Part shown: positions 15,740 to 62,709 of the stretch, piece after piece
Layout: every line of letters begins with the position of its first letter
How positions within the stretch are numbered: position 1 is the first letter of the stretch
From: Tubiluchus corallicola
Taxonomy: Eukaryota > Animalia > Priapulida
Reading direction: 5' to 3'
NCBI GenBank assembly: GCA_030141605.1
Contig: JAQGDQ010000398.1
Span: 149,415-213,414 of the forward strand
DNA length: 64,000 bases
The notes under the pieces: model-generated
What the model saw: the letters and a program-made list of their open reading frames with translations, nothing else
Told to the model about the DNA's origin: nothing
Databases searched by the model: none
Translations under genes and position numbers: made by a program

Positions 15740-16379
15740 GCCTATTTCTAACACAATTGATCTGCTTTCTGGACATGATGCTTAATAAGCGGCCTTAATT
15801 TACAACTGTAGCCGTAAATGAGAATCAGAGGTTCTCATTAACCATTAATGGCAGTGTCTTCATGTGTTTTATATGGCCGCTTATCATTGTTGGTTTTATA
15901 AGTTCAGTACATAGAGCACCAAATAATAGATAAAAAACCGCATTTATGTATTTATTTATTTGATTATTTTTCATTTAATTATTTATTTTGTATTGCGGCC
16001 GCAATACAAATAAACATAACAAAAAATAAAATGAAATTCAAATGACAATAAAAATAGAAGCTATCAATTTTTTGCACTATTTACGGAATTGACATGCGGT
16101 TAAAACACGTACAGTAAAATTGCTTATATGTCGATATTAAATTTCGAAAATTTAATCAAAATTGACAAGTTTTAGCCTTTTTTTAAAAGAGAAATTATTT
16201 TATTGACCAAGTGTTCTTCATTTACAGATGAGGATAGTACGTTCCATATCTTGACAACACTATTTCTAAAAAATATTTTAAATAATCTGTTCAGCAAATT
16301 TAACAAAGTATTTTTATGACTTCTTGCGGCAGAAGAAGCATGAATAAAAATGCGTTAAAATTTGCGTCCTAATTCATTA

Positions 16380-19300
16380 CCAGATTCTTATCGAAAACTG
16401 ATACATACATGTCTAACATTACTGTACACAAAGATTTAGTCAAAACACTATTAAGTAACGTCAATACGAGCAAATCTGTAGGTCCTGATGGAATAAGCAA
16501 CAAAGTACTTAAGCTTTGTGCAGATTCATTATCAAGCCTATTAACCCGACTGTTTAACTTGTCATTACAGTCAGGTCATTTTCCTAGCTTGTGGAAAGTT
16601 GCAAATGTCTGCCCCATACACAAAGGCGGAGATAGACAGCTCGTTTCGAACTGCAGACCCGTGGCGATACTTTCATGTATGTCCAAGATTCTAGAACGCG
16701 TTGTCTTTAATCAGATGTATAACTACTTTGCTATTGATAATAACTTATTGACGGAAAAGAACTCGGGGTTTAAATCAAACGATAACACAATCAACCAGCT
16801 AGCTTCAATCGTTCACAATTTGTATACAAGTTTAGACGACGGTGCTGAAATCTGTAGCGTTTTTCTGGACATCAGTAAAGCTTTTGATAAGGTGTGGCAT
16901 GTGGGCTTGATATTCAAATTAAAGCAGTATGGAGTAAGTGGCCAACTTCTGTTTTGGCTATCATCTTACCTTCGAAACCGAACACAAAGAGTAACACTAA
17001 ACGGTAATACATCTGATGCGAAGTCACTTTTATCTAACGTCCCCCAAGGTTCTATCTTAGGTCCCCTTCTATGTTTAGTGTATGCTAATGATATTACAGA
17101 AGACATTCAATCTGATATTCGCCTTTTTGCAGACGATACGGTTTTAATGGATTCGTTTAAGGATGACCCACATACATCAGCAAATCGCTTAAAGGCAGAT
17201 CTCAGAATAATTGAAAACTGGGCCAAACGTTGGTTGGTTAAATTTAATCCTAATAAGACCGAAGTCATGGTTTCTCCCGTAAATCCAATGCTCCTCAATA
17301 TTCTACTCTGTATTTATCTAATACTCCACTGAAAACAGTAAATGTTCACAAACACTTAGGTATCCATCTTACATCTGATCTGAACTGGAACTATCACGTC
17401 TCAAAAATGGTAGACAAAGCAAATCTAAAGCTAAACAACTTTCGACGCGTGTCAGTTAAAATGCCCAGAGCTACGCGGGAACGATAATTCATTACGACTA
17501 TCCTCCCTGCCATCAAATACGGTAACGTAGTATGGTCCGGATACAGTGAAAACGTTTATTAGAAAATATTCAGCTAACTGCTGCTAGAATCTGTTCTGGC
17601 GCTATGTTTCGATCTTCCCCTGCAAGTATCTTGTATGATAGCGGCTTCACTAAATTAGTGACGCGCTTCCATTATCGTCGTCTATGTCTTTTTTTCAAAA
17701 TAATCAATGACTTAGCGCCCCACTATTTAAGTACAATTCTGCCGCCAAAGGTAAACGAAGTTACCCCCTATTATATATGCGGTGGTACTAAATACAGAAA
17801 TTTTAATTGCCGTTCTGTTAGCTGTGAAAAATCGTTTTTCATATCGACCATTAATATGTGGAACAACTTACCACAGAACGTTCGTGAAATTACATCCATT
17901 CACAATTCAAACAAGAGCTCAAATCTCATTTAAGTTTTTCGTTGCGTAAGAAACATTTTTCAATTGGTGTAACCTCCAATATGTTATGAATAAATTTCGA
18001 AATCATGAATTAAGTGATTAATTAATGGAGTTATCAACTTCATTACATTATGTTGATAAAGAGACCTCCTAATTGGATTAGATAAATTTATTGAAAGATT
18101 ATGGGAACTCACTTAGCTGGTTAAAGCACATATTTAATGCGAGGCAAGAAATTATCGTCACAGAGTTTGTGTTTACAAGGAATAGAACAGGTGTTCATTT
18201 AGAGAGTAAAAGTTTGTCACAGGTGTTTATTTAAGAGAGCGTAGAAATTGCAGGTGTTTAGTTTAGAGGAAGCGAAGCTTATTTTTATAACATTGCGTGG
18301 TTAGATAATAAGCCTCATGTAATGTTATGCGGAGTTGTCGAACTATAATTGAGAAGAAGCAGAAAGTGGTTCCTTTCTTGAACGAGAGTTTATAACCCAA
18401 GCGACGCAATGAACAATCTCTCGGGTTGATGAAGTGAAGGACAAGGCGAGTAGCGGTGTTTTTCTCATGTAAGAAGCTACGTTACCTGCCATCTGGATGG
18501 TCATAAACCACCAAGCCAAGAACGTAACCTTTGAACTATTGCGACGCGTTGCGGCGTTAGCGCGCAATGTTACGAAACTCTATTAGAGTATATAAGATGG
18601 TGTTTTGGAAGAACACGTGGCTAGTCGTTTGCGGAACACGTTGCTAGTCGGATGTGAATCGAACGTGAGTGAGTTCGTCAGTCAGAGAGAAGGGAGAAGA
18701 TCAAGTCTGGAGAGGCTACAGGAGTTCTGAGAGAAGCAAAGACACGTTAGACCCAGCGTAGACAACAATCTGCGTCCTCAACGACTTGAGCACTGGATCT
18801 GCGAATAGAGTCTTGCAGCGGAATTGGATTTGACCAATTGAACAGTTGTCATTGGTCATTCCACCAAGTTAAGTGATCTTAACATATCGTAACTTGAGAG
18901 CAACTCTGCATAGTAGTAAATCACAGTAATAGACACCTTAAGTGTAACGTGTAGTCGATTGTAATTGCATACTTCACATTGTAATAAGCACCTTAAGTGC
19001 GAAGCAAGGAAATAGTTAAGTGAATCGGATTAGTGTCTCTTGCAGCTAATTATTAATTGTGAGCGTCTTTGGCGATTAAGATCAAACATTGTAAAATTAG
19101 TTGACTAAGAGTAATTGTTGTAAAACAATAAACGGATTTCACTTTAACTTAAAGGAATAGTTTGTGTATGCTTATAGGTGTTTCAGTTAAGCAACATTAA
19201 ATTCTGTAAACGAATCTGAAGATTTGCTGTGTACATTAAGTTAATTTACAAGTTCAATTGCGGGAACTTTTGCTAGTAAGCTTTAGAGATAAATACTCTA

Positions 19301-22927: not shown

Positions 22928-24566
22928 GTAAGAAAAATATGCCTTAATGACAAAGACCCCAATTGACTACAATTACTTTTCTTTTTGCTTTTTCTAAACA
23001 GTGATATAACAACTGACGTCAAGAATTCTCGTTGACTGCCCAATCAGCTTGCAAAATTTTTCACCTCCCTAAGAGTTTAATTAACGCCAGCGCTTTAGGG
23101 ACATTTAGCTGCAGCTGCGTATTGCCGGGCATCTAATACTTTTATGAAAAATGCTCAATGTCTCTCTTGAAGAATTTTCAAAACTTCTATAACGCACGTC
23201 GTTTAGAAAATACAGAATCAGTTTAATCGATTATAGGTTTGAAATCAGGGAAAAAAGTAGATCCGTGATGCAGATATCAATCAAGCTAAAATCAGCTCTC
23301 AAATCATCTCTCAGAAGAGACACGCGAGTTACTCATCAAGATTTTCGCGGCTTTGTCTAATATCTAATTCCATCCTTCTATTACAATGTGCATCGACACA
23401 AATGATGAACAAACATTTTCAATTTAGCAATGAGCCATTTTTGGTGTCTTTAGGAAAACATGAAACCTCATTTCATTTTGTCACCACAACATTTGAGTTT
23501 TTCATGCACTACAAAGCAAGTCAGTAGAAATCATGAAAAAACATTTTGATTTAGCAATGAGCCTTTTATGGTTTCTTTGGCAAAATATAAAACTACATTC
23601 CATTTTGATACCACTGCATTGGAGGTTTTTATATCTACATCAATAGCAAACCCTCTTAATTACGTTAATTACGTATCTAATGGACGTGGTACAGACACCC
23701 TCTGTCCTCTAATGAGAGTTTAACCCCTGATGAGTAAAGACATGTGCTGTTTCATGCTTATTTATTTCACAAATGTAGGCAGATTTACTTTCATATTTAA
23801 AATCATGTGTAAACGTCAGATATTACATATTTTTCACTTAATTTTGATTCGTACCAAGAAAGCAGAGATGACCCATATGAAATCTTCTTAAATATCTTAC
23901 TCTTTCGTGACGCGTATAAAGTTTTTACTCCATTGCATAAGCGAAAGCTTTTACTCAAGACTAAAGACAGAAGTTTATACTAAACTCTTTAGTAGATACT
24001 ACAGATCCCCCGTGATAGTAGTAAAAACTTTCTACTTCCCTTCAGATGATCAATCATTTGCTTTTACCAAACATCTTGCATTCTCTAAAGCATAGTAGAT
24101 GCTAAGATTGTCTTCAGCGTCTTCAAGGGGTTTCATTGTTTTTTGACCAGACGGTCTGCATTTTGTGACAAACCTGCTCAAAAATGTCTGAAGAGGAAGA
24201 CGTGAAAAAAACGGCTGAAGAAGATATGCAATTTTTTTGTCAAGTGGCTGAAAAGAAGAGGAAAATTCTTATTCAAAAGTCAATGTTATCTCGAAGCGGC
24301 GTGGTGTTAGGACGTAATTTTGTTGCTCTGATTGTCACTGTGTTTACTAAGTTTTTTGCTCAAACTAGTAATGGAAAGTTATATGTACATGTGCATAAAC
24401 GTATGCAGCACCTGAATATGTGAGAATTTTGGTGAAAATTCAAGTGGTTTTTGAATTATTAACGAAAAACTATTCAAAAATAGCAAAGGATTGGTGTGTA
24501 ATCTAGTCGACTGGAACTAGTACGACAACATCGTTACCTGTTAACCGTATACACACCGACGCATCA

Positions 24567-25340
24567 TTGGCTAGGAAAATGGATATGTCAGAAAACGTTA
24601 ATGAGCTAACCAGCCCAGCACCTCTCTCTAAACCACAGACAAAGACCAGGAAAAGTTGCCAAAAATGCAAAACCATACAACAGTCATTAAAGCTTCGAGC
24701 CTGTGGAGAAAAGCTTTGCGACAAGTGCTACAATAAACAGTACGGCAATACACTCATTAAACAGACTGTACAGGAAACAAATCAAAAATCGTCAAATCAC
24801 GAAGCAGATTTGGTCAACCACAGCATAATCGTTGATTATGAATTCCCAAACACTATTGGTGATCAGGACCATAAAAACTCTCCTAAAAACCAACCAGCGC
24901 TGATGTTTGTGAATCCCGATACATCAGATAACGAGTCAGAATCCGAATATGACACTCCGCCAGTAACAGAAAAGTTGTTTCTATTAACATGTATTAATCC
25001 GCAGCCACTACATTCTAACACGGAAAGTGAGTTTATGAAAGCCAACTCGCATGTGAATAACTTAGTTGATGGAAAACAAACAACGCTTCTCATTTCCAAC
25101 AGCCTTGATGATCTGCCCGAACATGACGATATTTTTCCAAAAACAGTCTGCATCGGAGACTGTGAAAATCTGAAATTAGGACAACGATTATTAACACTCC
25201 AATTTATAAATAAACAGAGTCAACGTCAAGTCACAAACCTAGAAGCACAGCTTAGAGCTTCTTACGCAGAACAAACAACACTGAATAAGGAAATTACCAG
25301 ACTGCATAGCCTCATGGAAACACAACAAAGTGAGACTTAA
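24567..25340 (+). pseudogene. LINE ORF1 (zinc-finger-like Cys cluster plus coiled coil), interrupted by a stop
   Basis: CQKC..CGEKLCDKC followed by a heptad-rich segment; lies upstream of the RT ORF. Confidence 0.7.
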
Positions 25341-25636
25341 ACATCAAGTGAGCTTGACCTAAGATTACTACAAGGAAAAATCGACAAACTGAGCTACTAT
25401 CTACAAAACGAATCGCCGCAAAGTGTATGGCAAAAAATAAATGAGACTGAAGAACGACTGAGTAGAAAAATAGAAAAGTTGTATAGCCTTATGACACAAC
25501 GGACGTGCGGAGATGAGCTTTTGATATTAAATGAAACAGAAGCAAGAATGAGTAAAGCAATTAAAGACGGTTACAGCTTTTCACAACAGACAAAAGAAAA
25601 AGCAGACAGACCAGCTTCTGAACTAATATAACCGTC

Positions 25637-28087
25637 TTGGACCAATATAACACGCAAATACTAAGCGCAAGTAATAAACACACAAGAATCACTAAAACAT
25701 CATCTACTACCATAGACCACTTTATCTCAAACGCTAAAGACAATTTCCAAGTACAAGAAAACTTCTCGTGTGATTATTCTGATCATAATTTTATAATAAT
25801 AGTAGACAAAAAAGAACCAGCCAAAAACAATACAGGCACAGTCTGGAAAACAGTCAGAGATTATTCTACATATAATAAAGATATATTTCAAGATACTTTA
25901 ACCAAATTGGACTGGAGTAATATTTACACAATGACTGACATTGACATGCAAATGAACACACTAATAAATAATATGGAATACTGCCTGGATATCTATGCAC
26001 CGTATAAAAAAATTAAAATACATCAGCAGCAATTTAATGCAAAATCAGCTTGCCTTTGGGCGGATACAGAACTCGCAAAACTAAGACACAATAAAAATGA
26101 ATTATATAGAACATATTTACACTTAAAAGGAAAAAGCAATTACAATAATTGCAAAAAGGCACGAAATAAATTTAATAGCTACAACGGGAAACTCAAAAAT
26201 AAATATTATATTAATAAATGCAATGATGCAACTACACCTAAGCAAAAAACCCGTTTAATTAATGACGTACTAAACAGATATAGAAACGATCAATTACAAA
26301 TAAACAGTTTACGAGAAAATGACAGTATAATATCTGATCCAGTTGACATTGCTAACAAATTAAATTCCACATTTATCAATCTCGGAAAATTTGACAACTT
26401 GCCACACCAACATAATGCAAATATACACAATATATACAAAAACCAATCAGTAATACAATCCACTTTCACATTTACTAGCGTCACAGAATACGACATCTTT
26501 AGAATATTAAATAGTTTAAATATAAATAAAGGAAGTGGACTCTCAGACATGCCAATAAAAATCTTAAAAGACTGTGCCAGCATCATTACTCCTCATCTAA
26601 CATATATCACAAACCAAGTCTTAATGCGCTCAGAATTTCCAGCCGTGTGTAAAGAAGCAAACATAACTCCAATACACAAGAAAGATGCTAAAGATGACGC
26701 TAAAAACTACAGACCAATCTCAGTAGTGCACGTACTAGCCAAAGTATTTGAAAGAGTTATCTACAACCAAATAAACCATTACATTGAAAATAATAAGTTA
26801 CTGTCAAATCATCAATTTGGTTTTAGAAAACTACATTCTACAATAGACGCGATAATTGATGCCACTGAAAAGTGGCGTTACAACTTAAATAAAAATAAAT
26901 ATATAACAGCAGCATTTTTAGATCTAAGTAAAGCTTTTGACAGCCTCGATCACAATTTACTACTAGACAACTTACGCCAACTAGGATTCGATTATACTTC
27001 TCTCAAACTAATTAATAATTACCTACACAATAGAAAACAAAGAGTCAAGTTGAGCAAACACACTTTTTCAACATGGGACACACCACAGAGAGGCATCCCA
27101 CAAGGTACGATATTAGATCCTTTATTCTTTTGTTTATACGTTAATAAAATTCATTTAGTTTTACATAATTCAGACTTAACACAATATGCCGATGATACAA
27201 CACTCTATACAGCACACGCAGACTTTCTAACATCAAAAAATAATCTAGAAAAAGACATAACAATTATAAATGCAGCATTTAACTATTTTGGTTTAAAAAT
27301 GAATGATGATAAGACAGAATTTATGGTAATATCACCCAAATCCAATGACATTACTTCTAATGCAACACTAAAAGTAGGTGACTGTTCCATAGAACAAGCA
27401 AAAACTGTAAAATTTTTAGGCATTACTGTCGACAATAAACTCACTTGGGATGAACAGTTTCATCAAATACACAACAAGATGGCATTAAGCACGACATTCT
27501 TGCGCCAAACCAGAGGCCATCTAACCAAGAAAACAAAAATTCTCATCTACAAAAGTCTAATATTACCACATTATCTATATGGTTGCACTTTACTTCAAAA
27601 CGTTAAATAAGAAAACTTTAGAAAACTAAATACAATGCAAAACTACGCACTTAGATTAATTCATGGCTACTCTAACAAAACTGCTAAACAACATGCTGCT
27701 TCTGCAACAAGCTTAAGAACGTCAACAAAAATACCAATATTAGAAGCCTATCGAGATTACAAAACACTGATATTTCTTTATAAATATATCAACAAACTGA
27801 GCATTCCATTTATAAACAATCCCTTAGCATTTATTCCTGATACCACTTTAAACACTAGAACATACAATTTAAAGCAAGTTACAGTAAACAATAAATTTGG
27901 AAATAACTCTATATCAAAACAGGCCATACATTTATGGAACTTACTTCCCAGTGAAATAAAGCAAATAGAATCTCTCCACCACTTTAAAAAGAAATTAAAA
28001 GAATATCAATATAACAGGTTTCAACTTCCACATTGTGCATCTGATACTAATTACACGGACTCCACTTTCATATACCCCCGCCCCTGA
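25637..28087 (+). pseudogene. LINE ORF2 (partial AP endonuclease plus reverse transcriptase) with one premature TAA at 27608-27610
   Basis: ORFs 25637..27610 and 27635..28087 are in the same frame; canonical RT motifs. Confidence 0.92.
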
Positions 28088-37936: not shown

Positions 37937-38927
37937 ACAAAACAAATAAACAAATAAAAGTGAAACCACAAAAAATAAAATACACAGAGAGACAAAAAAT
38001 CTACATATTACTATACAGTAAACTAAGATTATGTACAAATCAAATAATTATAAAGGCACAAATAAAACTTTTATTTCAAGTTATAAGGATGACAATCGTA
38101 GTAAAAATACCTGTTATCATCTTTGGTGCGGTTGTGTAGTTGGTTGATCTCTCTGTCAGTGAGTAACTCCACTATTGTAGAACAGCATCATTGAAACTTC
38201 TCTGGTTAACTACAACATGTTACATCAATTAACGCTTTCACAGTATCATGATGTACGTTACATACCATTTCTTGTGTAAGACCTTCAATTACAGCATTTT
38301 TCTTTAGATAATTCAACTTCACTGATACGAAGAATCAATCCATGTCCTCCATGCCAAGATGTCGTCTGTACACGCTTTTACTACAAATGGCATTTCATTA
38401 TTTTTGCAGCCAGCTTTGTGCCATCTTAATTTTCAACTCGCATGACGTCACTGGCGTCAAACGCGCAAAGCCACCAATAGTAAATACGCTTCAAAATAAA
38501 CAGCAGCTACTGTAATTACAAAGGTGTAACTAGTGTTTTTGCTTAATTAATTATTTTTATGTTGAACAGTTTAGAGTCTAGTTGTGACTGCTGCAGGACC
38601 TCTCAGCAGGTATTTCAATCTTCAGATGCAGGAAACAAGGAGATTCATCTACGGGCTTAATTGAGGGACTACTGTGAGTTACTCCTGCGTTCTTATTATT
38701 AGATGCCTGTTTGTAGGGCAAATGTTAATCTTAAGAGCAGTCCATTGAGGGGAAAAGTGTGGGGAGAAGAACGATTATTTTAAACTTCTAAGTAGAAATG
38801 TTGCACATAACGATGTGAAGTATTAAGCAGCTAAGAGCAAACAGCTAAGGGTAATCCTGTTCCCCTATCCTAGGATCTGCCAACCCAGACGATTTTTTCA
38901 CGTTCTCTGCATGAACGATTCTGTTTT

Positions 38928-41900
38928 GTAAAAATGGAAGGGATGTTCTCTTTCATTGTGATCCCATTTCGTGCTCATTTAGGATGAGATAACAGTTGAT
39001 GAAAAATGGAAGGAATGTTCTCTTTCACTGTGATCCCATTTCTTGCTCATTTAGGATGAGATAATAGTTGATGTAAAAATGGAAGGAATGTTCTCTTTCA
39101 CTGTGATCCCATTTCTTGCTCATTTAGGATGAGATAACAGTTGATGTAAAAATGGAAGGAATGTTTTCTTTCACTGTGATCCCATTTCGTGCTCATTTAG
39201 GGTGAGATAACAGTTGATGTAAAAATGGAAGGAATGTTCTCTTTCAATGTGATCCCATTTCTTGCTCATTTAGTATGAGATAACAGTTGATGTAAAAATG
39301 GAAGGAATGTTCTCTTTCACTGTGATCCCATTTCTTGCTCATTTAGGATGAGATAGCAGTTGATGTAAAAATGGAAGGAATGTTCTCTTTCACTGTGGTG
39401 CCATTTCGTGCTCATTTAGGATGAGATAACAGTTGATGAAAAATGGAAGGAATGTTCTCTTTCAATGTGATCCCATTTCGTGCTCATTTAGGATGAGATA
39501 ACAGTTGATGTAAAATAGAAGGAATGTTCTCTTTCAAATTGATCCCATTTCGTGCTCATTTAGGATGAGATTACAGTTGATGAAAAATGTAAGGAATGTT
39601 TTCTTTCACTATGATCCCATTTCTTGCTCATTTAGGATGAGATAACAGTTGATGTAAAAATGCAAGGAATGTTCTCTTTCACTGTGGTCCCATTTCGTGC
39701 TCATTTAGGATGAGATAATAGTTGATGTAAAAATGGAAGGAATGTTTTCTTTCACTGTGGTCCCATCTCCTGCTCATTTAGGATGAGATAACAGTTGATG
39801 TAAAAATGGAAGGAATGTTTTCTTTCACTGTGATCCCATTTCGTGCTCATTTAGGATGAGATAACAGTTGATGAAAAATGGAAAGAAATGTTCTCTTTCA
39901 CTGAGATCCCATCTCCTGCTCATTTAGGATGAGATAACAGTTGATGAAAAATGGAAGAAATGTTTTCTTTCACTGTGGTCCCATTTCGTGCTCATTTAGG
40001 ATGAGATAACAGTTGATGAAAAATGGAAGAAAGGTTCTCTTTCACTGTGGTCCCATTTCGTGCTCATTTAGGATGAGATAACAGTTGATGAAAAATGGAA
40101 GGAATGTTCTCTTTCGATGTGATCCCATTTCGTGCTCATTTAGGATGAGATAACAGTTGATGTAAAAATGGAAGGAATGTTCTCTTTCACTGTGATCCCA
40201 TTTCTTGCTCATTTAGGATGAGATAGCAGTTGATGTAAAAATGGAAGGAATGTTCTCTTTCACTGTGGTGCCATTTCGTGCTCATTTAGGATGAGATAAC
40301 AGTTGATGAAAAATGGAAGGAATGTTCTCTTTCAATGTGATCCCATTTCGTGCTCATTTAGGATGAGATAACAGTTGATGTAAAATAGAAGGAATGTTCT
40401 CTTTCAAATTGATCCCATTTCGTGCTCATTTAGGATGAGATTACAGTTGATGAAAAATGTAAGGAATGTTTTCTTTCACTATGATCCCATTTCTTGCTCA
40501 TTTAGGATGAGATAACAGTTGATGTAAAAATGCAAGGAATGTTCTCTTTCACTGTGGTCCCATTTCGTGCTCATTTAGGATGAGATAATAGTTGATGTAA
40601 AAATGGAAGGAATGTTTTCTTTCACTGTGGTCCCATTTCGTGCTCATTTAGGATGAGATAACAGTTGATGAAAAATGGAAGGAATGTTCTCTTTCACTGT
40701 GATCCCATTTCTTGCTCATTTAGGATGAGATAACAGTTGATGTAAAAATGGAAGGAATGTTCTCTTTCACTGTGATCCCATTTCTTGCTCATTTAGGATG
40801 AGATAACAGTTGATGTAAAAATGGAAGGAATGTTCTCTTTCAATGTGATCCTATTTCGTGCTCATTTAGGATGAGATAACAGTTGATGAAAAATGGAAGG
40901 AATGTTCTCTTTCACTGTGATCCCATTTCTTGCTCATTTAGGATGAGATAACAGTTGATGTAAAAATGGAAGGAATGTTTTCTTTCACTGTGATCCCATT
41001 TCTTGCTGATTTAGGATGAGATAACAGTTGATGTAAAAATGGAAGGAATGTTCTCTTTCACTGTGGTCCCATTTCGTGCTCATTTAGGATGAGATAACAG
41101 TTCATGAAAAATGGAAGGAATGTTCTCTTTCACTGTGGTCCCATTTCTTGCTCATTTAGGATGAGATAACAGTTGATGTAAAAATGGAAGGAATGTTTTC
41201 TTTCACTGTGATCCCATTTCTTGCTGATTTAGGATGAGATAACAGTTGATGTAAAAATGGAAGGAATGTTCTCTTTCACTGTGGTCCCATTTCGTGCTCA
41301 TTTAGGATGAGATAACAGTTCATGAAAAATGGAAGGAATGTTCTCTTTCACTATGATCCCATTTCTTGCTCATTTAGGATGAGATAACAGTTCATGAAAA
41401 ATGGAAGGAATGTTCTCTTTCAATGTGATCCCATTTCGTGCTCATTTAGGATGAGATAACAGTTGATGTAAAAATGGAAGGAATGTTCTCTTTCACTATG
41501 ATCCCATTTCTTGCTCATTTAGGATGAGATAACAGTTGATGAAAAATGGAAGGAATGTTCTCTTTCACTATGATCCCATTTCGTGCTCATTTAGGATGAG
41601 ATAACAGTTGATGTAAAAATGTAAGGAATGTTCTCTTTCACTGTGATCCAATTTCTTGCTCATTTAGGATGAGATAACAGTTGATGTAAAAATGGAAGGA
41701 ATGTTTTCTTTCACTGTGATCCCATTTCTTGCTGATTCAGGATGAGATAGCGGTTGATGTAAAAATGGAAGGAATGTTCTCTTTCACTGTGGTCCCATTT
41801 CGTGCTCATTTAGGATGAGATAACAGTTCATGAAAAATGGAAGGAATGTTCTCTTTCACTATGATCCCATTTCTTGCTCATTTAGGATGAGATAGCGGTT

Positions 41901-43147
41901 GATGTAAAAATGGAAGGAATGTTCTCTTTCACTGTGGTCCCATTTCGTGCTCATTTAGGATGAGATTACAGTTGATGAAAAATGTAAGGAATGTTCTCTT
42001 TCACTGTGATCCCATTTCTTGCTCATTTAGGATGAGATAACAGTTGATGTAAAAATGGAAGGAATGTTTTCTTTCACTGTGATCCCATTTCGTGCTCATT
42101 TAGGATGAGATAACAGTTGATGAAAAATGGAAGAAATGTTCTCTTTCACTGTGGTCCCATTTCGTGCTCATTTAGGATGAGATAACAGTTGATGAAAAAT
42201 GGAAGGTATGTTCTCTTTCACTGTGGTCCCATTTCGTGCTCATTTAGGATGAGATAACAGTTGATGTAAAAATGGAAGGAATGTTCTCTTTCACTGTGGT
42301 CCCATTTCGTGCTCATTTAGGATGAGATAACAGTTGATGTAAAAATGGAAGGAATGTTTTCTTTCAATGTGGTCCCATTTCGTGCTCATTTAGGATGAGA
42401 TAACAGTTGATGTAAAAATGGAAGGAATGTTTTCTTTCTCTGTGGTCCCATTTCGTGCTCATTTAGTATGAGATAACAGTTGATGTAAAAATGGAAGGAA
42501 TGTTTTCTTTCAATGTGGTCCCATTTCGTGCTCATTTAGGATGAGATAATAGTTGATGTAAAAATGGAAGGAATGTTTTCTTTCTCTGTGGTCCCATTTC
42601 GTGCTCATTTAGTATGAGATAACAGTTGATGTAAAAATGGAAGGAATGTTTTCTTTCAATGTGGTCCCATTTCGTGCTCATTTAGGATGAGATAATAGTT
42701 GATGTAAAAATGGAAGGAATGTTTTCTTTCTCTGTGGTCCCATTTCGTGCTCATTTAGTATGAGATAACAGTTGATGTAAAAATGGAAGGAATGTTTTCT
42801 TTCAATGTGGTCCCATTTCGTGCTCATTTAGGATGAGATAATAGTTGATGTAAAAATGGAAGGAATGTTTTCTTTCACTGTGGTCCCATTTCGTGCTCAT
42901 TTAGTATGAGATAACAGTTGATGTAAAAATGGAAGGAATGTTTTCTTTCAATGTGGTCCCATTTCGTGCTCATTTAGGATGAGATAATAGTTGATGTAAA
43001 AATGGAAGGAATGTTTTCTTTCTCTGTGGTCCCATTTCGTGCTCATTTAGTATGAGATAACAGTTGATGTAAAAATGGAAGGAATGTTTTCTTTCAATGT
43101 GGTCCCATTTCGTGCTCATTTAGTATGAGATGACAGTTGATGTAAAG
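38928..43147. repeat. 72/73-bp satellite array, ~58 copies, 4.2 kb
   Basis: Unit gtaaaaatggaaggaatgttctctttcactgtgatcccatttcgtgctcatttaggatgagataacagttgat, with starts at 38928, 39001, 39073, ... Confidence 0.99.
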
Positions 43148-57972: not shown

Positions 57973-59106
57973 CCTTGCTGGAACTCTCGGGAAGCGAAAA
58001 ATGCGAAATTTGGACATTTTGTCACATTCTTGCAATTTATAGTTGTGCATAGATTGATGATTCTAGTCTTACTTTTTATGTAAGTCACCTACTACCCAGT
58101 GTCTACCCGATTATCTATTTCAGCGTACCCAAGAAGTGGTTCTACATTTGTCGGTGACATTTTCAGCAACGATCCCGAAGTGTTTTATATATTTGAACCT
58201 GCTTGGTTTGAAGAAGCCCAGATTTTTGGTCCAGGAGATGGGAAAGGATGACGTAGTGGACCCTTGACAGTGATGACCCAGAAGTTGATAGGAAATCTTG
58301 CCTCGTGCAATTATACTGGCGAACACATGCTGAATTTTTTACGCTATAACGAGAAAAGACGCAAAACCTATCATTCTCGAGCACTTGCTAGGGAAAAAGG
58401 GTGTGATGACGAAAACTTTGGAAGCAGAGTAAACAAATGTTGGGCAGCTCCACCTTCTGGCTATTTACATCTTTCTCCACTAGAGTGGACAAAAGTTTGT
58501 CAAAATTACAATACCCATGTCTACAAAGTTTTTCGCCTGCGTGTAGTAGACGTCTTGCCGTTACTGAATCTTCCTGGATATAGCGTAAAAGTTTTATACA
58601 TGATTCGAGATCCAAGGGCAATTATAAAATCTAGAATGCAGTTAGGGTGGCTGAAAAATCTCACTTGTGAGGCACATGGTCAGGATAATCCATCCACACT
58701 ATGCTATGACATGATGGATGACTATGAGAGTGCAATGAGATTAAACTTACCCAGTGACATAATGAAAATTATAAAATATGAGGAGATAGCATACGACCCT
58801 ATTACCAAAATAAAGGAACTATTTGAATTTGTTGGACTTAATTAAACAGAAAATATTGACAAATACCTTAAGAAGAATGCCCTAGCAAAGACAGGCGGAG
58901 CAGGTGGAATTCGTACAAGTAGTAAGAACTCTACAAAAACAGCAAACGCTTGGAAGGACAAACTAACTGAGTCAGAAATAGTCATGATTGAAAAACAGTG
59001 TGGGGAATTCTTAAATCGTGCTGGTTACAAATTTATGCACATGAAAGGCAAATCCTACATATCACTTTTGCGAAATTTAAAAATAGCAAATGGCTATATT
59101 CGGTAA
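57973..59106 (+). pseudogene. Carbohydrate 6-O-sulfotransferase (CHST1/GlcNAc6ST-like) with in-frame stops
   Basis: One frame carries the 5'-PSB motif AYPRSGSTFVG, FYIFEP, the 3'-PB motif IRDPRAIIKSR, KYEEIAYDP and WKDKL..EIVMIEKQC; stops TGA 58249-58251 and TAA 58843-58845, plus TAA 58081-58083 after an upstream hydrophobic stretch; terminal TAA 59104-59106; AATAAA near 59193. Confidence 0.9.
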
Positions 59107-59770: not shown

Positions 59771-60980
59771 TTTACCAGGTGTAACGTGCTTTAGGTATGA
59801 AGGCAAGAAATTTTGACATTTGTCGAATTAAAATCTATTTTGTGAAGATTAGCAAAATATTCAGAAGATATTGAAGTACTTGAACAGAAGTTGCAAGTAA
59901 AACAATGTAATCGGCATAAAGCAAATAGTTAATGATGTTCCCTGTTGATGCGTAGAGTTGCACAATAGTTATTTTATATTGGAAACGACTAACTACTGTT
60001 TGTGTTTATAAATGAACAGAGACACATTGAATTATTAGAGTACCTTTAGCGGAGTACCCGGACATCTGGGAGTTACGACGCATTGAAAAGGATTTTATTC
60101 AGTTCGAGGTTTGCAACAATGTGCTGCCATCTGTTAGCCGATTCAATAATATCTGACGCTGCTTGTGTAATATTTTACAACCAGGCTCTACAATTAGCAT
60201 TATCAGTGCAAAACAATAAAAATTGAGTCCTCACAACCAAGTAATACTAAGAAAGTATAAAACCCTGAACTGTGTCGAAAAAAATCAAATTAGAAAACTT
60301 GGTATGTACTCGTACACGATGGTTGAATGTGTCAAAAAATGACATTTGCCCACAATTTACCAGATTTTCCTGTAGGGGTCACTACTTTTAAACACATTTT
60401 AAGGCACGTTCTGTTGTGGCTTAACTCTGATTCCAAATTTCTGTTGCCTCAAAGCCAATAACTGTATTACAAGGTGTTGTTCTGCTACAGTTCATACCAC
60501 CGCAACGGGACCTACACGTTAATAACACTTACATGGTGATAATTCCTGTATAAGTTTTAAAAAACTGCCTAATCTGAACCAAATACACTGCGTTTAAATT
60601 AATAAGAGTTACGACGGAACATCTTCCCTAAAATCCGCAAATGTCGACGGTATATTCACCGCATTGTAGAAAGCTGATCAGTAAGAGTGTATGCTACTAT
60701 TTTTCGCAACGGACTTTGACAAAAGTGGCAAGATCCTCACCTGAAGAAATAGACATTTTTTCTATATTAGATCAATTGAATAAAATCGAAACGTTTGTAC
60801 AAAACTGCAACGCCGTTACAAATGCAAATGATATAGCCAATATCAGAAGGTGAGTTTAAGGTCAAACCGCAAGAGTGGAGAATATTCAATGCGCACACAC
60901 CCAATTTAAAGTGCGACGGTAACGGATTTCCCTCCGTTAGCAAGTGCGACCGAGGGTAATAAACCTTCAGGATTAATTCT

Positions 60981-61473
60981 TCTTCTTCTTCCCAGCTTTT
61001 CCCTATTCGGGGTCGCCCTTCTGAATGAGTTTTCTCCACGCATTCCTGTTGTTGACCATCTCTTCCTTTATGTCTTCAATTCCCACAAGATCTTCACCGA
61101 CTCTTCTTTTCAGGTGTCCATACCATCGCAATCTTGCGAGGCTTCCACTACTTTTACTGTTCCTCTGATATTATTATTTCTAATTTATCTCTTCTTGTTA
61201 TTCCCACCATCCATCTCATCATCCTCATCTCCACCACACCCATTTTCTTCTCTTCGGTCTTCTTTAGAGAAGCTGCTTCCAGCCCATAGATTAAAGCGGG
61301 TCTGACCATTTCTTTGTGGACTTTCCCTTTGAGTCTCACCGATTCATTCATAGAAGGTTTTGGCGCAGTTTTTACAGGCGGATGCCCTTCCTGACCCTAA
61401 CCCTCCCTATTTATCCGGGCTTGGGACCGGCACTGAGTTGGGCTGGCTTGCCCCCCCCCCAAGTGGCTAGATT
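60981..61473 (-). mobile_element. 493-bp internally deleted RTE derivative (LINE-derived SINE-like) with 18-bp TSD
   Basis: TSD ACCTTCAGGATTAATTCT at 60963-60980 and 61474-61491; (GAA)n tail; RTE C-terminal VRLKGKVHKEMVRPALIYG...EMRMMRWMVGITRRDK; RTE-type 5' UTR joined directly to it. Confidence 0.92.
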
Positions 61474-61474
61474 A
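61396..61474 (-). ncRNA. Twister ribozyme (type P1 with P3), present as the 3' cleavage product at the element's 5' end
   Basis: Minus strand U|AA-UCUA-GC-CACU...AGUG-CCGG-UCCCAAGC-CCGG-AUAAA-UAGG-GAGGG reproduces the twister core GCCGGUCCCAAGCCCGGAUAAA...GAGGG with intact P2 (UCUA/UAGG), P3 (CACU/AGUG) and P4. Confidence 0.88.
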
Positions 61475-62160
61475 CCTTCAGGATTAATTCTGCGAGGCCA
61501 AAAACCAGATCTCGTATTAATGTTACCGACAAACCTAAAATCATCTATGGTAACAGAAAGGAAGACATTAGCACGAAACGAAAAAGCATTCAGAGAAAGC
61601 TACACTGAACAAGATATTAAAACTGATATTGAAATGTAAAATGTGCCTTCGACGTCCATTGAAAGATTTCAAAACAGCAATAAATATCTACCATAACTGT
61701 TTCACTCGACCAACTCGACATTTTATATAAGCCAAACTTTTGGCCTGAAGGAATTGGTCGAGAAAGTAATTATGAAAACAACATTACTGACGGCCCGCCT
61801 ACTCTAACTGTAAGTAATTAGTCATAGCGAACAGTAATCAAATTAATAATCTACGCTTGCTGTCTTACAACTGCGCTGGACTATCTAACCAAAAAGTTCA
61901 ATTCATAAACAATGTGTGCTTTGAAGAATAACACGCAGATATATGCGCTATTAATCAACACTGGTTGCACAAAACAGCAATTACAAAAATAAGCCTAGGA
62001 TATAGTGAAACTGACTAGTACAACAGTTCACGTGCTATAAGAGACAATGAAATATTACGAGACAGGTTATAGTGGAACTGGTATAATATGGAAAAAAACT
62101 TAGTATTTGAATAACCCCCCATTAATTGTGAGTATGGGAGGGTTACAGCCTTTAATGGTG

Positions 62161-62370
62161 TATATTGTTTTGGCTGGTGACTTTAACTAACGTCAGCCCT
62201 GTATTTGAGGAATGTTTGACCAGCTTGTCCAAGATTGTGAACCAGTACAACTATATTGTTTTGGCTGCTGACTTTAACTAACATCAGCCCTGAGTTTGAG
62301 GAATGCTAGACCAGCATATTCGAGATTGTGAATCAGTAAAACTATGGTATTTGGGCTGGTGACTTTAACT
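62161..62370 (+). repeat. 91-bp tandem duplication (2.3 copies) of the LINE endonuclease GDFN-coding segment
   Basis: tatattgttttggctggtgactttaact-like starts at 62161, 62252 and 62343. Confidence 0.88.
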
Positions 62371-62709
62371 GCGATCTGAGTAGAGACACTGAGCAAGTGC
62401 GCATGCTTAAACAATTTATACGTGAGAAAAACCTTATTGTTGCAGTTAATTTAAATATGTCCAATGTTGATTATACATGTTATAATGCTGGTTTTAATAA
62501 ATTTTCCACAATTGATCACTTCATTGTCTCGGATAACTTTATAAATCATGTTGCTGAGGCCGGTGTCTGGCATTATACAGATAACTGTTCTGATCAGTCC
62601 CCTATTACTTTGACTCTTAAAGCAAAACCGGAGCCAATGTTAGACTGTTCGTAAAAACAACCTATTCTTTGAAATATTGAAAGTAAACATACCACTTTTA
62701 AAAAAAAAA

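What the first reader, a model, noticed from the sequence alone, without database searches (positions are those of the whole stretch)
60963..61491. Twister-ribozyme-capped, RTE-derived mini-retroelement whose 5' end sits exactly at the ribozyme cleavage site
Seen: a 493-bp minus-strand insert flanked by a perfect 18-bp TSD, with a (GAA)n tail, ~360 bp of RTE C-terminal coding remnant and ~130 bp of 5' leader. The leader reads AA-UCUA-GC-CACU-[G10 region]-AGUG-CCGG-UCCCAAGC-CCGG-AUAAA-UAGG-GAGGG. Established: this matches the twister ribozyme core (as in the rice Osa twister); twister cleaves U|A just 5' of A-A-P2-GC; twisters process 5' ends of RTE elements such as Schistosoma Perere-3. The insert begins at that first A. 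Inference: the copied RNA was a twister-processed, already internally deleted transcript. That would make it a non-autonomous bipartite RTE parasite (SINE-like, no Pol III head) relying on ribozyme cleavage of read-through transcripts, possibly an undescribed family.
Basis: partly seen in the sequence, partly recalled or inferred. Interest (0 to 1): 0.85.

Follow-up and report, generated by a model that had tools for sequence, protein, structure and literature searches.

The report
Twister-headed mini RTE jumping element
This 493-base insertion is one copy of a very abundant, shortened jumping gene in an invertebrate genome; its copies begin at the cut site of a predicted self-cleaving "twister" RNA, which likely frees them from host transcripts before they borrow the copying enzyme of a full-length relative, a new combination of two already known tricks.

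Summary
The 18-bp target-site duplication is exact. The leader hits Rfam twister-P1 (50 bits, E 1.5e-9; below the 67.2 gathering score), and the insert starts at the first A of the U|AA site.

It is a family, not a one-off deletion. Summed contig depth over the insert is thousands of times the flank in a DNA run, and it continues across the leader/ORF junction. Other copies start at the same AA and end at the same GAA tail, in unrelated flanks. The 3' part is residues 841-987 of a 987-aa APE+RT protein (75% identity), with two further deletions. The same twister leader heads a near full-length RTE and another leader-to-3'-end fusion in other contigs.

Cleavage, read-through transcription and trans-mobilisation are inferred, not shown. 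Each half is in print: twisters at RTE 5' ends (PMC8501958, PMC7761336), bipartite RTEs (PMC5786205) and ribozyme-headed R2 SIDEs (PMC3414825). Ten paper searches did not find the twister-plus-bipartite combination. This scan noted it earlier in other genomes (e1-7942443, e1-7807837). Verdict: new variant of a known kind; interest 0.38.

The parts
61474..61491 (-). Upstream TSD copy; supplies the -1 nucleotide (U, 61474) and the 5' strand of P1
   Evidence: 18/18 direct repeat; P1 has two G-U pairs of four
61401..61473 (-). Twister-P1 core from +1: AA 61473-72, P2 61471-68/61409-06, GC 61467-66, P3 61465-31 with G tract, P4 61429-27/61418-16, L4 61426-19, GAGGG 61405-01
   Evidence: Rfam RF03160, 50 bits, E 1.5e-9; pair table
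61340..61400 (-). Rest of the RTE 5' leader: 3' strand of P1, a motif conserved in 5 of 5 other loci found by it, and an ATG at 61351-49 in frame with the coding remnant
   Evidence: Alignment A1 (the loci were selected with a pattern containing part of this motif); translation
61335..61348 (-). Main deletion junction (about 840 codons, about 2.5 kb, missing); exact base not fixed
   Evidence: Protein match starts at 61339 = aa 841 of P0067; depth continuous across it, and a few low-depth contigs stop matching at 61335-61344
61003..61339 (-). Remnant of the RTE ORF C-terminus with stop codon; frameshift near 61183, losses of aa 907-914 and 933-965
   Evidence: 75% identity over 107 residues to P0067; tblastn; undeleted form seen as loose ends at 61073
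60981..61002 (-). Short 3' UTR and (GAA)n tail
   Evidence: Sequence; 14, 14 and 20 contigs in X1, X2, X3 leave into unrelated flanks at 60977
60963..60980 (-). Downstream TSD copy; first 4 nt continue the tail repeat

Best explanation
This is one copy of an abundant, internally deleted RTE retroelement family whose copies begin at the cut site of a predicted twister ribozyme, which likely cuts the element out of longer host transcripts so that a full-length RTE protein would copy it in trans. Steps: (1) inferred: a copy is transcribed as part of a host Pol II or read-through RNA; (2) predicted: the twister folds and cleaves N|AA, leaving a 5'-OH-AA end; (3) inferred: an autonomous RTE protein (APE + RT) binds the retained 3' end, nicks a target and primes on the GAA tail, helped by tail/target microhomology (4 nt at this locus, seen); (4) seen: the new copy runs from AA to the tail between target duplications; (5) seen here, with activity from the literature: the target supplies a new -1 base and P1 strand, neither of which is reported to be critical, so most new copies would keep a working ribozyme. 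This copy differs from the family majority at 10 or more sites and may itself be weak.
For: Family: X1 summed contig depth is 573,000-894,000 in the seven bins lying almost wholly inside the insert, against about 190-380 in most flank bins (not a copy number, but it implies order 10^3 copies). Junction shared: 490,000 in bin 61341-48, against 513,000 and 667,000 beside it; 66 (X1) and 19 (X3) contigs cover 61343 with the majority letter; X1 record 1 and X3 records 9 and 10 bridge it with about 31 nt or more on each side. 5' end: 4 of the 7 rows of 5' loose ends shown (39 of 81 contigs) read through P2 and the AA; three of these then have low agreement (0.53-0.54) and one has 0.86. 3' end: loose ends at 60977 with agreement 0.44-0.49. 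Undeleted RTE sequence is present in the same runs (loose ends at 61073, 5 contigs in X1 and 10 in X3; by hand they encode CINGDLREK, matching the missing segment of P0004/P0067). The same twister leader precedes a near full-length RTE ORF in L002 (aa 50-981). P2 and P3 show compensatory pairs across loci. Literature: Perere-3 TSDs abut the AA, cleavage yields 5'-AA and does not depend on the -1 base (PMC8501958, sections 18, 19); P1 imperfections are tolerated and about 94% of tested twisters cleave (PMC11662667).
Against: No cleavage or RNA data. The score is below Rfam's gathering threshold. The nested minimum-energy fold of this copy does not form P2 (pair probability 0.0; z = +1.43), though the folder ignores pseudoknots. 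Of the 7 rows of 5' loose ends shown, 3 (42 contigs) are mixed or G/C-run consensus and say nothing on the start; 73 rows were not shown. Leader depth in X1 is up to 1.9 times junction depth, so some leader copies may lack this junction. X2, X3 and X4 show 3'-biased depth (X3 about 20-fold from tail to twister), which points to 5'-truncated copies, other families sharing the 3' end, or library bias. In 5 of 6 informative rows the majority base before AA is U, which could mean a start one base further upstream; at this locus that base lies in both TSD copies. P2 is broken in L003 and partly in L002. No full-length parent from this genome was recovered; the closest full-length protein is only 75% identical.
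Confidence: 0.72

Rival explanations
1. The family is real, but its RNA is made from an internal Pol II promoter in the leader that starts at or just before +1. The twister only trims a few bases or is a vestige inherited from the parent RTE.
For: Bipartite LINEs are thought to be Pol II-transcribed from their 5' ends (PMC5786205, section 23). The leader motif downstream of the twister is conserved with no assigned role. The majority base before AA is often U.
Against: A transcription start falling exactly on the scissile bond needs a coincidence. Perere-3 shows the same junction with proven cleavage. The catalytic core is invariant in 6 of 6 loci, though these were selected on it.
Confidence: 0.2
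2. It is a Pol III SINE whose head mimics tRNA A and B boxes.
For: The best A+B box arrangement has tRNA-like spacing (positions 5 and 46).
Against: It has four mismatches to the recalled consensus, and 73 of 500 shuffles do as well. No tRNA by ARAGORN; no tRNA, 5S or 7SL hit in Rfam. The head is shared with a near full-length RTE (L002).
Confidence: 0.03
3. A full-length RTE inserted here and was deleted afterwards, so the short form was never mobile.
For: The remnant has three separate deletions and a frameshift.
Against: Depth across the main junction is over 1,000 times the flank, and dozens of distinct contigs cover it in two samples. Only 5-10 contigs per run show the undeleted form at the second junction in the rows shown.
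Confidence: 0.02

Closest known systems
Twister T-variants at the 5' end of Perere-3 (RTE clade), Schistosoma mansoni (PMC8501958; abstract, introduction, passages, section 18 part 1 of 2, sections 19 and 22 read)
   Same: Twister-P1 core; TSD directly before AA; target supplies the P1 5' strand; APE-type RTE with a short-repeat tail.
   Different: Perere-3 is autonomous, and the word 'truncated' does not occur in the main text. This element lacks about 840 codons, has a GAA rather than GTAA tail, and has no cleavage assay.
Bipartite ORF-absent non-autonomous RTE LINEs: Bov-A, RTESINE1/2, WALLSI3, MAR4_MD (PMC5786205, passages and section 23; PMC7245038, passages)
   Same: 5' and 3' ends of an RTE joined by internal deletion; no small-RNA head; many copies. 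The paper proposes that 5' ribozymes explain why such elements keep the true 5' end.
   Different: The ribozymes cited there are HDV-like; twister does not appear in the passages read. This family keeps about 337 nt of ORF C-terminus rather than mainly UTRs.
R2 SIDEs and R2/R1 hybrid SIDEs of Drosophila; RIME and NARTc of trypanosomes (PMC3414825, abstract and Discussion; PMC6765202, passages)
   Same: Ribozyme plus 3' end, released from a co-transcript and mobilised in trans.
   Different: SIDEs use an HDV-like ribozyme, insert at fixed 28S rDNA sites and are called rare. This family has a twister, unrelated flanks and very high abundance.
Truncated twisters at 5' ends of RTE-superfamily elements (one sentence, 'in preparation', in PMC7761336; passage read)
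   Same: States that catalytically competent truncated twisters are conserved at RTE 5' ends.
   Different: No data or non-autonomous forms are given in the passages read; no follow-up paper was found.

Membership tests
Twister-P1 ribozyme (RF03160) | Full-length covariance-model match beyond chance | tested here: met
   Model 1-68, 50 bits, E 1.5e-9
Twister-P1 ribozyme (RF03160) | Rfam gathering score 67.2 | tested here: not met
   50 bits; penalised by P1 mismatches and a long P3. The RTE-linked loci L001-L003 also score 40-45
Twister-P1 ribozyme (RF03160) | Conserved L1 AA, L2 GC, L4 and GAGGG; P2 and P4 stems | tested here: met
Twister-P1 ribozyme (RF03160) | P1 stem | tested here: not met
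   Two G-U pairs of four; reported dispensable (PMC11662667)
Twister-P1 ribozyme (RF03160) | Site-specific self-cleavage | not testable with these tools
   Needs an in vitro assay
RTE-clade non-LTR retrotransposon derivative | Homology to a single ORF of about 990 aa with APE endonuclease and RT | tested here: met
   aa 841-987 of P0067, 75%; Pfam RVT_1 and Exo_endo_phos on P0005
RTE-clade non-LTR retrotransposon derivative | Placement in the RTE clade on an RT tree with named references | not tested
   No named RTE reference was returned; the label rests on the single-ORF layout, the short-repeat tail and recalled clade features
RTE-clade non-LTR retrotransposon derivative | Short-repeat tail and TSD | tested here: met
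Bipartite non-autonomous LINE (SIDE-like) | 5' and 3' ends of the parent joined, coding capacity lost | tested here: met
Bipartite non-autonomous LINE (SIDE-like) | Many copies share the junction and both ends | tested here: met
Bipartite non-autonomous LINE (SIDE-like) | Each copy has its own TSD | tested here: inconclusive
   Flanks differ at both ends, but no listed contig spans a whole copy, so TSDs could not be paired
Bipartite non-autonomous LINE (SIDE-like) | Autonomous partner in the same genome | tested here: inconclusive
   Undeleted pieces appear as loose ends; no full-length parent recovered
Pol III SINE | tRNA, 5S or 7SL head with A/B boxes | tested here: not met

The most novel reading that the evidence does not exclude
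A promoterless, headless parasite in which the twister makes almost any transcribed copy a source gene. The genome would carry a thousand or more live self-cleavage sites that cut host pre-mRNAs where copies lie in sense orientation. The twister plus about 45 nt of leader would be a minimal 5' module that RTEs shed repeatedly (this family, L003), offering a compact trans-template for RTE proteins.
Probability: 0.3. Interest if true: 0.62.

Novelty: new variant of a known kind. Interest (0 to 1): 0.38.

Why it matters
Twister ribozymes have one assigned biological role in the papers found, in one flatworm's autonomous element. A non-coding, high-copy family that keeps the twister and starts at its cut site would show that the ribozyme serves RNA-end formation apart from translation. 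It would also test the proposal (PMC5786205) that 5' ribozymes are why only a few LINE clades spawn bipartite parasites. With so many copies, the -1 base, P1 pairing and intron orientation can be tested statistically once an assembly is at hand. It is not a new kind of system.

Tried and rejected
No whole genome is held, so there was no genome-wide BLAST or TSD census; contig depth from public runs stood in. No RNA holder was listed. Viral contigs: two pattern scans and one protein scan found nothing. The scan's earlier notes held no look-alike of this sequence and no twister/RTE note among 33 notes on this genome. The MAFFT alignment misregistered the 5' half of the twisters, so pairs were counted by motif anchoring. 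Nested folding gave no support for the twister fold in this copy, and no unusual stability in the leader or 3' end (z -0.14, -0.75). Pol III boxes were not significant. PDB has no close relative: best L1 ORF2p, E 5e-39. No host gene was identified beside the insert. The weak mir-727 and RSV_RNA hits (E 0.32, 0.84) were rejected as chance. The CHiTA supplement (PMC11662667), which may list a near-identical tested twister, could not be read; Liu 2021 supplements were not read. Repbase and Dfam are not searchable here, so the family may already be catalogued. A microhomology origin of the main junction (the VRLK-like motif occurs near both the N- and C-terminus of P0067) was considered but could not be tested without the parent DNA.

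Full report
Observation. The window is AT-rich animal DNA (30-40% GC per 2 kb) with LINE remnants and tandem repeats. An earlier, unchecked scan note calls the host a likely non-arthropod invertebrate. An exact 18-nt direct repeat at 60963-60980 and 61474-61491 encloses 493 nt on the minus strand. The insert ends in (GAA)3GA, and the first four bases of the downstream repeat continue that tail, as expected if tail and target annealed during priming (inference).

The ribozyme. cmscan matches twister-P1 over the whole model at 61397-61478 (50 bits, E 1.5e-9), below the gathering score of 67.2. P2, the base of P3 and P4 pair fully, and the conserved loops are intact. P1 has only two G-U pairs, because its 5' strand is target DNA. 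The insert's first base is the first A of U|AA. In Schistosoma, cleavage was mapped to give 5'-AA, works with any -1 base, and TSDs abut that AA (PMC8501958, sections 18, 19). A high-throughput study found P1 defects harmless and about 94% of tested twisters active (PMC11662667, passages and abstract). Against activity of this copy: nested folding does not form P2, though it ignores the pseudoknots, and the G tract length differs between the window and contigs of the same locus.

The coding remnant. Bases 61339-61006 match residues 841-987 of a 987-aa APE+RT protein (P0067, unnamed; 75% over 107 residues, the best of the stored proteins of 120 aa or more). The nearest named hits are short Penaeus indicus proteins (77-79% to one 58-aa piece). 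About 840 codons are missing, plus aa 907-914 and 933-965, and there is a frameshift near 61183. An ATG at 61351 is in frame with the remnant and gives at most 65 codons; I see no sign of a useful product. The RTE label rests on the single-ORF layout and tail; no tree with named references was built.

Family or single event. No assembly is held, so I laid contigs of public DNA runs on the locus: 4 of the 6 listed runs (two samples) and 2. In X1, summed depth is 573,000-894,000 inside the insert and about 190-380 in most flank bins. This is not a copy number, since overlapping contigs inflate it, but it implies a thousand copies or more. At 8-nt resolution the junction bin has 490,000, against 513,000 and 667,000 beside it, and 66 and 19 contigs cover 61343 in X1 and X3. 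A few low-depth contigs match the leader only down to 61335-61344 and then run into other sequence; these may be the parent. At the 3' end 14, 14 and 20 contigs leave the tail into unrelated flanks. At the 5' end, 4 of the 7 rows shown (39 of 81 contigs) run through P2 to the AA and then diverge; the other 3 rows are uninformative, and 73 rows were not shown. The majority has C at 61471, which makes P2 fully Watson-Crick. The window copy differs from the majority at 10 listed sites or more, so it is about 2% or more diverged. X3, from another study, carries both junctions of this very insertion (records 17 and 22). Caveats: three runs show 3'-biased depth, and leader depth exceeds junction depth.

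Relatives elsewhere. A twister-plus-leader pattern found 3 metagenome loci and 2 loci in bacterial assemblies. L002 has the twister about 200 nt before a near full-length RTE ORF (aa 50-981 of P0005, 44%). L003 joins the same leader directly to aa 754. L001 resumes at aa 353. L001-L003 all hit twister-P1 (40-45 bits). P2 and P3 vary with compensation (U-G, C-G or U-A at the first P2 pair; A-U or U-A in P3), but P2 is broken in L003. L001 and L003 are single contigs and need not be mobile families.

Mechanism. Best reading (0.72): co-transcription with host RNA, twister cleavage, and trans target-primed reverse transcription by an autonomous RTE. The structure, shared ends and abundance are shown; transcription, cleavage and trans-mobilisation are inferred. 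The main rival (0.2) is an internal Pol II promoter with a trimming or vestigial twister. A Pol III head is not supported (73 of 500 shuffles match as well). Post-insertion deletion is contradicted.

Known context. Bipartite non-autonomous LINEs are reported for RTE, Ingi, Vingi and R2, and a 5' ribozyme is proposed as the reason they keep the true 5' end (PMC5786205, section 23). They are called common for RTE (PMC7245038, passages). R2 SIDEs are the direct mechanistic precedent (PMC3414825, abstract and Discussion). A 2020 review states that truncated, active twisters are conserved at RTE 5' ends (PMC7761336, passage). Ten full-text searches listed no paper whose title, abstract start or passages read describe a twister-headed non-autonomous RTE. 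The library lacks most subscription journals, Repbase and Dfam, and unread supplements may bear on this. This scan noted the same design in other genomes; those notes are unchecked and not independent support.

Verdict. Real, and a family. It works like an R2 SIDE built from a Perere-3-type RTE. New variant of a known kind; interest 0.38.

Noticed in passing
window 58093-59106 (+): Sulfotransferase-like single reading frame (Pfam Sulfotransfer_1, E 1.7e-9) interrupted by two in-frame stops; likely a pseudogene.
   Followed up: partly
window 61399, loose ends in runs X1 and X3: Six contigs share the twister core but continue into a different leader: likely a second twister-headed family in the same genome.
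   Followed up: no
L004 and L005: Short contigs in two bacterial assemblies (Alcanivorax profundi, Thalassococcus profundi) carry near-identical twister leaders, in L004 followed by RTE coding fragments; likely animal DNA contamination. Both show three tandem repeats of the twister's first bases.
   Followed up: partly
window 60623-60883 and 61595-61677: A 3-kb contig in X1 and X2 (about 87% alike, depth similar to the window's own contig in X1) joins 60883 to 61595 without the insert: a diverged allele or paralogue, not a clean empty site.
   Followed up: no
L003:850-1332: Twister leader fused directly to RTE residue 754, breaking just after the same leader motif as the window family: possibly an independent bipartite element.
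   Followed up: partly
window 24507-28087 (+), 16373-17332 (+), 62340-62654 (+): Other LINE remnants: two RT-domain ORFs (the longer with an upstream 277-aa ORF) and an endonuclease-like fragment.
   Followed up: no
window 38927-43146 and 722-2172: Tandem arrays: 58 copies of 73 bp and 16.5 copies of 88 bp.
   Followed up: no
window 61175-61348 vs P0002, P0003: 77-79% protein identity to Penaeus indicus RTE fragments, high if the host is not an arthropod; horizontal transfer of retrotransposons involving shrimp is in print (PMC5055719, search listing only).
   Followed up: no
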